Positions 1-1,161 of a DNA stretch of 1,161 bases are shown in pieces. Source of the DNA: Naegleria gruberi (lineage: Eukaryota). The stretch's first letter is position 1; the number at the start of each line of letters is the position of its first letter. The DNA is taken from the NCBI GenBank assembly GCA_000004985.1, contig GG739523.1. The stretch is one strand, 5' to 3'. The position numbers were made by a program, and so were the translations under genes. A model generated the notes under the pieces. The model was not told where the DNA came from, did not search any database, and saw nothing but the letters and a program-made list of their open reading frames with translations.

Positions 1-516
1 TGCTCTCAGTTTTCCAAACTCACCTTCAGCAAGAAACTGGGCCAAGATGATTCTTTTTTCTTAAAAACAATTCAAATTCCAAAACTATAGATACTAGAAT
101 CTCACGCAACCTAAAATCAAATTCTAGAGATCAACTAGAACGATTTGATGTATTGTGTGTACTTCTACCTGGTCTCAATTTTATGTAGTAGTGCACAGCT
201 TTAATAACATGAACAAAATCCAGCCAAAAATTGCTTGCCAAAAAATCACAAAATATTTTATTGATAAATAAGTGAATAAATCTTGCAAAACACCTCAAAA
301 TCAATTTTCTCATTAAAAACAAATCGAAAAGATGAATAAAAAAGAGAGTATCATGAGATGGTCCATTGAGTTTTATTTGTCATTTTTTGTGTTCTTCCAC
401 AAAGTAAAAGACCTGATATTTGCAAAATATGTTTTTTATTGGACTTGTAAATTTTTTTTTGTGGCTTTTGAGAACAACAAAATACTGAACATACCCCCCA
501 CCTGATAATATCAATC

Positions 517-527
517 TCCAATTTCGA
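517..527 (+). repeat. Copy 1 of the short direct-repeat motif TCCAATTTC(G/A)A
   Basis: tccaatttcga at 517-527. The same 9-mer TCCAATTTC recurs at 625-633, and the variant TTCAATTTCAA at 754-764. Confidence 0.35.
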
Positions 528-624
528 ATAGTAGATGTGGGTGCTGAACAAGAGGAATTAATAGGATGATGAATCTTAAACATGTTATTCATACCTTAAT
601 ATTGTATCACCCTTCTCGTTAGAT

Positions 625-635
625 TCCAATTTCAA
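625..635 (+). repeat. Copy 2 of the short direct-repeat motif TCCAATTTC(G/A)A
   Basis: tccaatttcaa at 625-635, which shares an identical 9-mer with 517-525. Confidence 0.35.
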
Positions 636-753
636 TTAGATACCTTCCTCTCAACCAATTGAAACATTAAGAGCCAATTGTTGTTATCTTTTTTACTTCT
701 AATTGGAAAAAAAAACTGCGCGCTAAGTTTTTAGAAAGTGCGCTCTTCAAAAA

Positions 754-764
754 TTCAATTTCAA
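754..764 (+). repeat. Copy 3 (variant) of the TCCAATTTCAA motif, immediately upstream of the start codon
   Basis: ttcaatttcaa at 754-764. It shows 10/11 identity to copy 2 and overlaps the AAAAATTCA element. Confidence 0.3.
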
Positions 765-776
765 CCTCATAAAAAA

Positions 777-1161
777 ATGTCTCGATCATTCCACTATGAT
801 GATGCACTCTCTAATGGCTCGGATAACAATTTGAGGGATATCGAGTTGGCAGATGATAGTAAATATGTACTTCCTAAAAAAACAAAATGGTCTCGGAATA
901 AAAAGATTTGTGTGGGTAGTTTGCTAGGCTGTGGATTGTGTTGTTTAATTACATGTATTGTAATTGCTATTGCTATTGCAATTTATTTAGGAAGAAAGAA
1001 TGTAAATATTTATCCTACTCCTGAATATACAGCATCAGATGATTTTTTACGTTTTCTTGTTGTTGGAGATATGGGACGTGCAGATGATGGTCAAAAGGCT
1101 GTTGCTGCCAGTATGGGAAAGTTCTGTAAAACACAAAAATGTCATTTTGTAATTGGTATTG
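777..1161 (+). CDS. Partial CDS (5' complete, 3' truncated by the window end) for a membrane-anchored purple acid phosphatase / tartrate-resistant acid phosphatase (ACP5)-like metallophosphoesterase
   Basis: ATG at 777 in an A-rich context (cataaaaaaATGtct). An in-frame TAG lies at 732-734 with no ATG between it and 777. No ATG occurs on the + strand between 584 and 777. The frame stays open for 128 codons to the window end with a coding-like composition of about 35% GC, against about 28% upstream. Translation contains FLRFLVVGDMGRADDG (a GDxG metal-binding motif I without His, as in purple acid phosphatases). About 25 residues later it reaches HFVIGIG at the window edge, where motif II (GDNxY) is expected. 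Spacing and hydrophobic pattern match human ACP5 LRFVAVGDWGG...ADFILSLGDNFY from memory. The ORF track missed this because it runs off the window. Confidence 0.8.
   Translation, partial: MSRSFHYDDALSNGSDNNLRDIELADDSKYVLPKKTKWSRNKKICVGSLLGCGLCCLITCIVIAIAIAIYLGRKNVNIYPTPEYTASDDFLRFLVVGDMGRADDGQKAVAASMGKFCKTQKCHFVIGI
906..992 (+). other. Predicted single transmembrane / signal-anchor segment within the CDS (ICVGSLLGCGLCCLITCIVIAIAIAIYLG), with type II (N-in) topology predicted
   Basis: A 28-residue uninterrupted hydrophobic stretch with 5 Cys, translated from 906..992. It is preceded by the basic cluster KKTKWSRNKK (6 positive charges) and followed by only GRKN, so the positive-inside rule puts the N-terminus in the cytosol. 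There is no cleavable-signal-like small-residue motif right after it. The catalytic domain starts about 20 residues downstream. Confidence 0.65.
1053..1076 (+). other. Metallophosphoesterase motif I (FLVVGDMG) coding segment
   Basis: Beta-strand-like hydrophobic run followed by GDxG. Purple acid phosphatases use GDxG rather than the GDxHG of PPP phosphatases. Reading-frame positions were verified codon by codon. Confidence 0.7.

What the first reader, a model, noticed from the sequence alone, without database searches (positions are those of the whole stretch)
777..992. Unusual architecture for a TRAP-like phosphatase: a long cytosolic N-terminal tail and a Cys-rich type II signal anchor instead of a cleavable signal peptide
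Known ACP5/PAP enzymes are soluble secreted or lysosomal proteins with short cleavable signal peptides. Here the first 43 residues are hydrophilic: an acidic and Ser-rich stretch (DDALSNGSDNNLRDIELADDS) followed by the basic cluster KKTKWSRNKK. A 28-residue hydrophobic segment with five cysteines follows (C45, C52, C55, C56, C60), and the catalytic domain starts about 20 residues after it. This predicts a membrane-tethered ecto- or lumenal phosphatase with a cytosolic tail. The juxtamembrane Cys next to the basic cluster are candidate S-palmitoylation sites. The acidic/Ser cluster could be a casein-kinase-type phospho-sorting signal.
Basis: inference. Interest (0 to 1): 0.55.

Follow-up and report, generated by a model that had tools for sequence, protein, structure and literature searches.

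The report
Membrane-anchored TRAP-like phosphatase of Naegleria
The window holds the start of a Naegleria gruberi gene for a tartrate-resistant-type (purple) acid phosphatase whose N-terminus looks like an uncleaved membrane anchor with a cytosolic tail rather than a short signal peptide, a genuine feature shared by its whole amoeboflagellate subfamily but only a modest variation on a well-known enzyme.

Summary
Window 777-992 encodes residues 1-72 of an ORF that runs off the contig. It has a 43-residue hydrophilic tail (acidic, then basic), then a 28-29-residue hydrophobic segment with Cys at 45, 52, 55, 56 and 60. GDMG follows 25 residues later.

The window is a 1161-bp Naegleria gruberi mini-scaffold. 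The 128-aa fragment alone matches no Pfam or PDB entry. Its orthologues (N. lovaniensis P0017 and environmental P0020, both 53% identical) are clear TRAP/ACP5 homologues: E about 1e-34 to human TRAP, TRAP fold, all seven metal ligands.

The tail and anchor are not an annotation artefact. Residues 1-261 of the orthologue lie in one exon, and no Met lies between M1 and the catalytic motif. All 17 members of this Naegleria/Willaertia-type subfamily carry a 20-34-residue (P0024: about 26) hydrophobic segment after a 6-70-residue tail. Bacterial ACP5-like relatives have ordinary signal or lipoprotein-type leaders.

The motif CGLCCL[IV][TS]C is invariant in the three orthologues, which fits S-acylation but does not prove it. 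The casein-kinase idea fails: the tail has no [ST]xx[DE] site.

Best reading: a type II signal-anchored lumenal or ecto purple acid phosphatase. It is a new variant of a known kind and of modest interest.

The parts
1..776 (.). AT-rich upstream non-coding DNA (31% G+C). It has no ORF over 70 aa, no Rfam match, and no conservation with the orthologous loci.
732..734 (+). In-frame TAG stop 14 codons upstream of the ATG. The reading frame therefore cannot be extended upstream without splicing.
777..779 (+). ATG start codon, preceded by AAAAAAA. It is the only Met before residue 99.
777..860 (+). Acidic, Ser/Asn-rich part of the predicted cytosolic tail (residues 1-28; 7 acidic, 2 basic). The orthologue's tail (P0017 residues 1-28) is modelled as disordered. 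A weakly conserved patch S-D-x(2-3)-L-R-[DE]-[IV] is present.
861..905 (+). Basic juxtamembrane cluster (residues 29-43, KYVLPKKTKWSRNKK; +7, no acidic residue). This is the positive-inside determinant. The orthologues carry KKKK at the same place.
906..992 (+). Hydrophobic signal-anchor or transmembrane segment (residues 44-72, ICVGSLLGCGLCCLITCIVIAIAIAIYLG).
   Evidence: helix 29-63 in the P0017 model
930..956 (+). Cys-rich motif CGLCCLITC (C52, C55, C56, C60). It is invariant as CGLCCL[IV][TS]C in the three orthologues and reads CGLAC in Willaertia P0003. C45 (window 909-911) lies at the cytosolic boundary.
993..1046 (+). Conserved lumenal linker (residues 73-90, RKNVNIYPTPEYTASDDF). P80, Y84, S87 and D89 are invariant in the 8-sequence subfamily alignment A2. 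The equivalent stretch is confidently modelled in the orthologue.
1047..1160 (+). Start of the metallophosphatase (TRAP/ACP5-type) catalytic domain, residues 91-128. The contig ends just before the family's GDNIY motif.
1065..1076 (+). Metallophosphatase motif I, GDMG (residues 97-100). D98 is the first metal ligand, and G97, D98 and G100 are invariant in the family.
1125..1160 (+). Twelve codons (CKTQKCHFVIGI) that the public 116-aa gene model leaves out. They align with all homologues and include the near-invariant C117 and C122. They are therefore coding sequence and not an intron.

Best explanation
The window is the 5' end of a real Naegleria gruberi gene. It encodes a purple (tartrate-resistant, ACP5-type) acid phosphatase from a subfamily seen in Naegleria, Willaertia and unnamed environmental relatives.

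The proposed mechanism is inferred, not shown. It rests on a rule from my own knowledge: a long n-region plus an h-region of more than 20 residues gives a signal anchor, and the positive-inside rule sets orientation.
1. The protein is made with an uncleaved N-terminal signal anchor.
2. The 28-residue hydrophobic helix targets the nascent chain to the ER.
3. The +7 basic cluster in front of the helix holds the N-terminus in the cytosol.
4. The binuclear-metal catalytic domain is translocated to the lumenal or extracellular side. It sits close to the membrane on a short, conserved Pro/Tyr-rich linker.

The enzyme would then hydrolyse phosphomonoesters in the phagolysosomal system and/or at the cell surface of this bacterivorous amoeba. 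The tether would keep it from being lost. The disordered acidic-then-basic tail and the conserved CGLCC..C cysteines at the cytosolic half of the helix are the likely handles for sorting, possibly through S-acylation.

Shown here: the gene, its homology, its fold (through the orthologue), conservation of the architecture, and the single-exon N-terminus.
Inferred: topology, absence of cleavage, location, acylation and substrate.
For: - Source and reality: there is a 100% match to 'predicted protein, partial [Naegleria gruberi]' on a 1161-bp contig.
- Orthologues: P0017 (N. lovaniensis) and P0020 (environmental) are 53% identical over 91-95% of the query, tail and anchor included.
- TRAP identity: P0002 and P0017 match TRAP in the PDB at E = 2e-35 and 6.5e-35. 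The AlphaFold model of P0017 has pLDDT 92, and Foldseek gives TM-score 0.84-0.89 to pig, rat and human TRAP. D89, D122, Y125, N161, H259, H294 and H296 of P0017 are invariant or nearly so in 54 sequences.
- Architecture: the P0017 tail (1-28) is disordered, residues 29-63 form one helix, and the linker 64-80 is confidently modelled.
- Family survey: the 17 subfamily sequences have tails of 6-70 aa and uncharged hydrophobic segments of 20-34 aa, median 28; for P0024 the script value (42) merged the segment with the first strand and the real one is about 26 aa. The ACP5-like hits in the same table that I take to be mostly bacterial (few carry an organism name) mostly have leaders of 0-10 aa and h-regions of 13-21 aa.
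- Charge bias: +7 in the 15 residues before the segment and +1 after it.
- Not an exon-joining error: residues 1-261 of P0017 are one exon in the N. lovaniensis genome. P0020 is a continuous ORF on three independent contigs.
- No alternative start: the only Met residues are 1, 99 and 113, and there is a stop 14 codons upstream.
- Selection: dN/dS is about 0.38 for the anchor, 0.24-0.40 for the linker and about 0.2 for the catalytic start.
- Cysteines: C52, C55, C56 and C60 are invariant in the orthologues, and C45, C52 and C56 are kept in Willaertia P0003.
- Lumenal-side hints: the catalytic domains of family members carry 1-8 N-x-S/T sequons and a near-invariant Cys pair, C117/C122.
Against: - No dedicated topology or signal-peptide predictor could be run, and no transcript or protein data were available.
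- The window itself contains only motif I of the enzyme and matches no Pfam or PDB entry on its own.
- The rest of the N. gruberi gene is not in the public protein set. The best other N. gruberi protein is only 57% identical. An incomplete or dead copy on an unplaced mini-scaffold therefore cannot be fully excluded.
- Small residues at -3/-1 (A-I-A, V-L-G, V-V-A) occur in all three orthologues four residues before the lumenal end of the helix. Signal-peptidase cleavage is unlikely but not formally excluded.
- No canonical sorting motif ([DE]xxxL[LI], YxxPhi, or a CK2 site) is present in the window tail.
- The sequons are weak evidence in Asn-rich proteins.
Confidence: 0.78

Rival explanations
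1. The anchor is only a transport form. The protein is inserted as a type II membrane protein but is clipped in the linker after delivery, by lysosomal or Kex2-like proteases. This would release a soluble phagolysosomal or secreted TRAP-like enzyme, much as some lysosomal and vacuolar hydrolases mature from membrane-bound precursors.
For: - A dibasic or basic pair (GRK, GRK, GRR) sits at the lumenal end of the helix in all three orthologues.
- From my own knowledge, characterised TRAPs act as soluble enzymes and are activated by proteolysis.
Against: - The basic pair lies directly at the membrane boundary.
- The following linker is conserved and confidently modelled, which leaves little exposed tether.
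- The conserved Cys motif and the dN/dS below 1 in the anchor suggest that the anchor has a function beyond a disposable leader.
Confidence: 0.22
2. The hydrophobic segment is a cleavable signal peptide with an unusually long n-region. The mature enzyme would then be an ordinary soluble secreted or lysosomal TRAP.
For: - Positions -3/-1 before I69 (A-I-A; V-L-G and V-V-A in the orthologues) satisfy the small-residue rule.
- Other ACP5-like proteins, including Acrasis kona P0028, have ordinary leaders.
Against: - The n-region is 43 residues and the h-region about 25-28 residues, with no polar c-region before the candidate site. From my own knowledge, h-regions longer than about 17-20 residues convert signal peptides into signal anchors.
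- The site ahead of the basic pair has Tyr at -3.
- All 17 subfamily members keep h-segments of 20-34 residues.
Confidence: 0.08
3. Annotation or assembly artefact. Either the N-terminus is a wrongly joined or mis-started exon, or the mini-scaffold carries a dead gene fragment.
For: - The contig is only 1161 bp and the public model is partial.
- The public model's 3' end is demonstrably misplaced by 12 codons.
- No full-length N. gruberi counterpart was found.
Against: - The orthologues have the same collinear tail-anchor-linker-catalytic order within one exon or one ORF.
- The 128-codon ORF is intact, with dN/dS of 0.2-0.4.
- No alternative Met exists.
- Nucleotide identity to the orthologous loci is about 74% across 896-1150.
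Confidence: 0.04

Closest known systems
Mammalian tartrate-resistant acid phosphatase type 5 (ACP5/TRAP, uteroferrin; PDB 1ute, 1qhw, 1war)
   Same: - The catalytic domain is of the same type: about 28-29% identity (Foldseek alignment), E about 1e-34, TM-score 0.84-0.89 for the orthologue model, and all seven metal ligands present.
- Window residues 91-128 align to TRAP's first strand, motif I and the first helix.
   Different: - TRAP has a short cleavable signal peptide and is a soluble lysosomal or secreted glycoprotein (my own knowledge).
- This protein has a 43-residue tail and a 28-residue Cys-rich hydrophobic anchor.
- Its motifs read GDMG/GDQG and GDNIY instead of GDWG and GDNFY.
- It has a subfamily-specific linker, [IF][YF]PxPxY[TS]xSxD, and an extra conserved Cys pair (C117/C122).
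Naegleria/Willaertia ACP5-like subfamily (N. lovaniensis C9374_001728 and C9374_010683, N. fowleri FDP41_002123, N. gruberi NAEGRDRAFT_69834, Willaertia magna ABK040_010907 and others). All are uncharacterised 'hypothetical' or 'predicted' proteins.
   Same: The window gene is a member of this group. It shares the tail, basic cluster, long hydrophobic segment, conserved linker and catalytic domain.
   Different: - Tail length (6-70 aa) and tail sequence are not conserved between paralogue groups.
- The CGLCC..C motif is specific to the window's orthologue group and partly kept in Willaertia P0003.
- Another paralogue group instead carries YYS[LFV] in the tail.
Yeast vacuolar alkaline phosphatase Pho8/ALP
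   Same: This is a working analogy only. ALP is a phosphatase made as a type II membrane protein, and sorting information in its cytoplasmic tail directs it to the vacuole via AP-3 (PMC2132655, read).
   Different: - ALP has an unrelated fold (the alkaline phosphatase superfamily, from my own knowledge).
- No canonical dileucine motif is present here. There is only a loose D-S-K-Y-V-L in the window, and it is not conserved in the orthologues.
Plasmodium/Toxoplasma GAP50 (PDB 3tgh) and plant PAPs with membrane attachment
   Same: - GAP50 has a TRAP-type fold that is tethered to a membrane (Foldseek E = 4e-23).
- Membrane-attached and possibly ER-anchored plant PAPs are mentioned in the literature (PMC3716720, read).
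   Different: - GAP50 is anchored at the C-terminus and is thought to be catalytically inactive (my own knowledge).
- The membrane-associated plant forms are large plant-type PAPs.
- None is described with an N-terminal signal anchor plus a cytosolic tail.

Membership tests
ACP5/TRAP-type purple acid phosphatase (metallophosphoesterase superfamily, PF00149) | Motif I, GDxG, with the first metal-binding Asp after a hydrophobic beta-strand | tested here: met
   Window residues 93-100 read FLVVGDMG. G97, D98 and G100 are invariant in alignments A1 and A2.
ACP5/TRAP-type purple acid phosphatase (metallophosphoesterase superfamily, PF00149) | Motifs II-V (GDxxY with the Fe(III)-ligand Tyr, GNH[DE], a His-containing motif IV, and GHxH) | tested here: inconclusive
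   The contig ends at I128, immediately before the family's GDNIY, so none of these motifs is in the window. All are present in orthologues P0017 and P0020, and they are nearly invariant in 54 aligned sequences.
ACP5/TRAP-type purple acid phosphatase (metallophosphoesterase superfamily, PF00149) | Significant sequence similarity to characterised or solved TRAPs and to the Pfam Metallophos model | tested here: inconclusive
   The 128-aa fragment alone gives no Pfam hit except a chance-level one (E = 0.32) and no PDB hit at E of 10 or below. By transitivity the test is met: window to P0017 at E = 8e-43, P0017 to human TRAP at 6.5e-35, and P0002 to pig TRAP at 2e-35 with Metallophos at 2.7e-13.
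ACP5/TRAP-type purple acid phosphatase (metallophosphoesterase superfamily, PF00149) | TRAP fold (beta-alpha-beta-alpha-beta sandwich of about 300 residues) | tested here: met
   This was tested on the orthologue, not the window. The AlphaFold model of P0017 has pLDDT 92. The top Foldseek hits are pig, rat and human TRAP, with TM-score 0.83-0.89 and E about 4e-29.
ACP5/TRAP-type purple acid phosphatase (metallophosphoesterase superfamily, PF00149) | Fe(III)-Tyr charge-transfer colour and tartrate-resistant acid phosphomonoesterase activity | not testable with these tools
   This needs purified enzyme.
Type II (signal-anchor, N-in/C-out) single-pass membrane protein | A single N-proximal uncharged hydrophobic segment long enough to span a bilayer (at least about 19 residues) and longer than a signal-peptide h-region | tested here: met
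   I44-L71 is 28 residues with mean KD 2.6 and KD19 maximum 2.84. The approximate Hessa-scale sum is -4.3 kcal/mol for residues 49-69, using scale values I recalled from memory.
Type II (signal-anchor, N-in/C-out) single-pass membrane protein | Positive-inside charge bias favouring a cytosolic N-terminus | tested here: met
   Net charge is +7 in the 15 residues before the segment and +1 in the 15 after it. The same sign of bias is seen in P0017, P0020 and P0003.
Type II (signal-anchor, N-in/C-out) single-pass membrane protein | No signal-peptidase cleavage, and topology verified | not testable with these tools
   No SignalP, Phobius or DeepTMHMM was available and no experiment was possible. 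The only evidence is rule-of-thumb: a 43-aa n-region, a 25-28-aa h-region, and no polar c-region.
Type II (signal-anchor, N-in/C-out) single-pass membrane protein | Architecture conserved in orthologues, so it is not a gene-model artefact | tested here: met
S-acylated (palmitoylated) transmembrane proteins | Cys at or near the cytosolic end of the membrane span, next to basic residues, and conserved | tested here: met
   C45 sits two residues after KK. C52, C55, C56 and C60 lie in the N-terminal (cytosolic) half of the span. Four of the five are invariant in the orthologues, and three of the five are kept in Willaertia P0003.
S-acylated (palmitoylated) transmembrane proteins | A thioester-linked acyl chain demonstrated | not testable with these tools
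   This needs acyl-biotin exchange or acyl-RAC with Cys-to-Ser mutants.
CK2-phosphorylated acidic-cluster sorting signal | Ser/Thr with an acidic residue at +3 ([ST]-x-x-[DE]) inside an acidic cluster | tested here: not met
   There are zero matches in window residues 1-43. The orthologues have 2-3 matches, but none at a position that is a consensus site in the window.

The most novel reading that the evidence does not exclude
The conserved CGLCCL[IV][TS]C signal anchor makes this the first example of a permanently membrane-tethered, multiply S-acylated TRAP-type phosphatase. It would act at the lumenal face of phagosomes or as an ecto-phosphatase on the amoeba surface, with acylation and the bipolar tail controlling its sorting. 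If so, a defined gene family would be assigned to the acid and ecto-phosphatase activities that have long been described cytochemically in free-living and pathogenic amoebae (that description is from my own knowledge).
Probability: 0.2. Interest if true: 0.45.

Novelty: new variant of a known kind. Interest (0 to 1): 0.3.

Why it matters
- Studied purple acid phosphatases are soluble enzymes. A lineage-wide switch to a type II membrane anchor shows another way that phagotrophic protists can retain a phosphate-scavenging hydrolase on their endolysosomal or surface membranes.
- The finding supplies candidate genes for amoebal membrane-bound acid phosphatase activity. This includes the pathogen N. 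fowleri, through its paralogue FDP41_002123.
- It corrects a public gene model and flags a gene that is incomplete in the N. gruberi assembly.
- It does not change the understanding of the enzyme's chemistry, and the membrane-anchoring principle itself is commonplace.

Tried and rejected
- Pfam and PDB sequence searches with the 128-aa fragment found nothing useful, because too little of the domain is in the window.
- An exact look-up of the public 116-aa model found no encoding contig.
- Two metagenome scans, one with the fragment and one with the three-orthologue alignment, returned no confirmed locus.
- The AlphaFold-database fold library was not available. The spread of the anchored architecture across eukaryotes could therefore be sampled only through the sequence hits.
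- Literature searches found no paper on an N-terminally anchored ACP5-type enzyme or on these loci. They covered a type II or signal-anchored purple acid phosphatase, Naegleria acid phosphatase, and the locus tags.
- Two literature leads were false. 'PAP2' in Trypanosoma brucei is a phosphatidic acid phosphatase. The Plasmodium PAP-domain protein UIS2 has a classical signal peptide plus a PEXEL motif.
- The upstream 776 nt showed nothing beyond chance in the promoter/terminator scan, the repeat search and the Rfam search. It is not conserved with the orthologous loci.
- I rejected a mitochondrial presequence because the tail is acidic.
- I rejected a tail-anchored protein because the hydrophobic segment is N-terminal to the catalytic domain.
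- I rejected an intron at 1126 (GTAAAA), which the public model implies, because the read-through is conserved.
- No canonical dileucine or YxxPhi signal occurs in the window tail.
Full report
**What is in the window**

The 1161-base window is 32% G+C. Its only substantial coding feature is an ORF that starts at ATG 777 and runs off the 3' end, 128 codons in all. An in-frame TAG lies 14 codons upstream, at 732-734. In the upstream 776 nt, no frame is open for more than 70 codons.

The product is identical over its first 116 residues to 'predicted protein, partial [Naegleria gruberi]', whose longest contig is 1161 bp. The window is therefore an unplaced mini-scaffold of the N. gruberi assembly that carries only the 5' end of a gene.

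**Check of the observation**

- Coordinates 777-992 are residues 1-72.
- Residues 1-43 are hydrophilic. Residues 1-28 hold 7 acidic and 2 basic residues. Residues 29-43 (KYVLPKKTKWSRNKK) hold 7 basic and no acidic residues.
- I44-L71/G72 is an uncharged stretch of 28-29 residues. Its Kyte-Doolittle 19-residue mean reaches 2.84, and it has Cys at 45, 52, 55, 56 and 60.
- The strand and motif LRFLVVGDMG begins at residue 91.

'TRAP-like' cannot be verified from the window alone. The 128 aa give no meaningful Pfam hit and no PDB sequence hit, because the contig ends one residue before the second metallophosphatase motif.

**Identity of the enzyme**

An exhaustive phmmer search of 1.8 billion representative proteins found 12 hits at E of 0.001 or below. 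Ten are the fragment's own model plus ACP5-like relatives; two long proteins (P0008, P0009) matched only the hydrophobic or basic stretch. Named sources among the relatives were N. gruberi, Willaertia magna, Volvox carteri and a SAR324 bacterium. The rest were environmental sequences.

A profile search added N. lovaniensis, N. fowleri and further environmental sequences. The two closest are orthologues:
- P0017 (N. lovaniensis C9374_001728, 367 aa): 53% identity, E = 8e-43, aligned from residue 12 to 128.
- P0020 (387 aa, found on three metagenome or read-assembly contigs): 53% identity, E = 1e-45, aligned from residue 7.

Full-length relatives are unambiguous TRAP/ACP5 homologues.
- P0002 and P0017 match pig, rat and human TRAP at E = 2e-35 and 6.5e-35.
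- Seven full-length or partial relatives that were scanned all match Pfam Metallophos.
- The AlphaFold model of P0017 (pLDDT 92, pTM 0.86) superposes on TRAP structures with TM-score 0.83-0.89.
- The seven metal ligands (D89, D122, Y125, N161, H259, H294, H296 in P0017) are invariant or nearly so in a 54-sequence alignment.

The window's D98 is the first of these ligands.

The 12 codons after the end of the public model (CKTQKCHFVIGI) align with all homologues and contain two near-invariant Cys. The implied intron at 1126 is therefore not real.

**Is the N-terminus real?**

1. Downstream start. The only Met residues are 1, 99 and 113. M99 lies inside the catalytic GDMG, so no alternative start keeps an active enzyme.
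2. Mis-joined exon. In the N. lovaniensis genome, residues 1-261 of the orthologue are one uninterrupted exon. The single intron lies after GHHH. P0020 is one continuous ORF. Nucleotide identity to these loci is about 74% from window 896 to 1150, and translated similarity extends back to 813.
3. Orthologues lacking the extension. They do not lack it. P0017 and P0020 have tails of 34 and 38 residues that are acidic and then KKKK, followed by 28-residue hydrophobic segments.

Across the 17 sequences of the subfamily in the script's table, tails range from 6 to 70 residues. The uncharged hydrophobic segments are 20-34 residues long, with a median of 28. For P0024 the script merged the segment with the first strand; the real one is about 26 residues.

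The ACP5-like proteins recovered in the same search that I take to be mostly bacterial (few carry an organism name) mostly have 0-10-residue leaders and 13-21-residue h-regions. Those are the pattern of signal or lipoprotein peptides.

dN/dS against the two orthologues is about 0.38 for the anchor, 0.24-0.40 for the linker and about 0.2 for the catalytic start. The whole N-terminus therefore evolves as coding sequence under constraint.

**Topology and mechanism (inference)**

A 43-residue n-region and a 25-28-residue h-region without a polar c-region are the features of a signal anchor, not a cleavable signal peptide. This rests on established rules for signal sequences, recalled from my own knowledge.

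The charge difference, +7 before and +1 after the segment, predicts a cytosolic N-terminus and a lumenal or extracellular catalytic domain.

The model of the orthologue shows a disordered tail (1-28), a single helix (29-63), and a non-helical linker that is nonetheless confidently placed (64-80) leading into the first strand. The linker carries the subfamily signature [IF][YF]PxPxY[TS]xSxD, and P80, Y84, S87 and D89 are invariant in the 8-sequence subfamily alignment. The free tether is therefore probably only about eight residues, which would hold the active site close to the membrane. I could not inspect model coordinates, so packing of the linker on the domain is inferred from conservation and confidence alone.

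N-glycosylation sequons (1-8 per catalytic domain) and a conserved Cys pair in the catalytic domain are compatible with a lumenal location, but they are weak evidence.

The most likely role is phosphomonoester hydrolysis in phagolysosomes and/or at the cell surface of a bacterivorous amoeba, with the anchor preventing loss of the enzyme. Whether the ectodomain is later released is open. A basic pair (GRK or GRR) is conserved at the lumenal boundary.

**The cysteines and the tail**

CGLCCL[IV][TS]C is invariant in the three orthologues. C45 is kept in P0020 and in Willaertia P0003, which has VC...CGLAC. Cys recurs at the positions of C52, C56 and C60 in 6-8 of 17 family members.

In the window-to-P0017 comparison, 4 of 5 Cys are conserved against 10 of 24 other anchor residues. 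These Cys lie in the half of the segment nearest the cytosol, next to the basic cluster. This is the usual context of S-acylation sites (my own knowledge).

The casein-kinase idea is not supported, because the window tail has no [ST]xx[DE] site. There is also no canonical [DE]xxxL[LI] or YxxPhi motif. The only candidates are a loose D-S-K-Y-V-L, which is not conserved, and a weakly conserved S-D-x(2-3)-L-R-[DE]-[IV] patch. A different paralogue group (P0016, P0004, P0019) has a conserved YYS[LFV] in its tail. This hints that the tails do carry sorting information, but of differing kinds.

**Comparison with what is known**

The catalytic domain belongs to the ACP5/TRAP branch of the purple acid phosphatases.

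What differs is the targeting module. Characterised TRAPs and small plant PAPs use cleavable signal peptides. GAP50 of Apicomplexa is C-terminally anchored (my own knowledge). The literature mentions membrane-attached or ER-anchored plant PAPs only in passing (PMC3716720).

Functionally, the closest analogies come from yeast:
- The vacuolar alkaline phosphatase is a type II membrane protein sorted by its cytoplasmic tail through AP-3 (PMC2132655).

Full-text searches found no description of an N-terminally anchored ACP5-type enzyme or of these loci.

The architecture is not unique to this gene. It is general in the Naegleria/Willaertia subfamily. It also appears in a Volvox homologue (P0010) and in three further ACP5-like proteins of unknown origin with the standard GDWGR/GDNFY motifs (P0024, P0130, P0153).

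**Verdict**

The palmitoylation suggestion is plausible and untested. The CK2 suggestion is not supported.

This is a new architectural variant of a well-known enzyme family. It is shared by a set of uncharacterised amoeboflagellate proteins and is of modest interest (0.3).

Noticed in passing
window 1122-1160: The public 116-aa gene model ends at F116 (window 1124), apparently at a presumed donor GTAAAA at 1126. The read-through CKTQKCHFVIGI is conserved in all homologues, including two near-invariant Cys. The model is therefore truncated by 12 codons and there is no intron here.
   Followed up: yes
L002 about 2308-2346 (P0020 residues 265-277); L001 from 5784: P0020 carries a 13-aa insert (SKFIIENVVQLTK) after GHHH. 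Its DNA is a 39-nt GTAAGT...AAAAG element in phase 1. It sits exactly where the N. lovaniensis orthologue has its only intron. It is probably an unspliced, in-frame mini-intron that the metagenome gene caller read through.
   Followed up: partly
window 1-90: Frame +1 is open from the contig start to TAA at 88-90 (CSQFSKLTFSKKLGQDDSFFLKTIQIPKL*), and by eye the first ~50 nt look less AT-rich than the rest (not measured). This could be the 3' end of an upstream gene.
   Followed up: no
whole window / N. gruberi assembly: No N. gruberi protein in the databases is closer than 57% identity (P0002), whereas N. lovaniensis has a full-length orthologue. The remainder of this gene seems to be missing from the N. 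gruberi assembly or protein set. No N. fowleri orthologue of this particular paralogue appeared among the listed hits.
   Followed up: partly
window 1-776 versus L001 4944-5000 and L002 1312-1515: The upstream spacer here is at least 776 nt. The spacer to the divergent upstream gene is only 57 nt in N. lovaniensis and 204 nt in the environmental relative. The neighbouring genes in those two loci also differ from each other, so there is no conserved synteny upstream.
   Followed up: partly
P0010 (Volvox carteri VOLCADRAFT_95555): The Volvox gene model repeats its first ~120 residues (tail, membrane segment and start of the catalytic domain) twice in tandem, with small differences. This is likely an assembly or gene-model artefact, or else a recent tandem duplication.
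   Followed up: no
one search hits P0131-P0140: The plant 'acid phosphatase' and 'PAP17/PAP3' entries of about 470-690 aa are well above the ~330 aa of a small PAP, most about double. They look like fused tandem gene models.
   Followed up: no
tails of P0016, P0004 and P0019: A different paralogue group has a conserved YYS[LFV] (YxxPhi-type) motif, 12-15 residues before the hydrophobic segment. This suggests adaptor-dependent sorting for those paralogues. The motif is absent from the window's orthologue group.
   Followed up: partly
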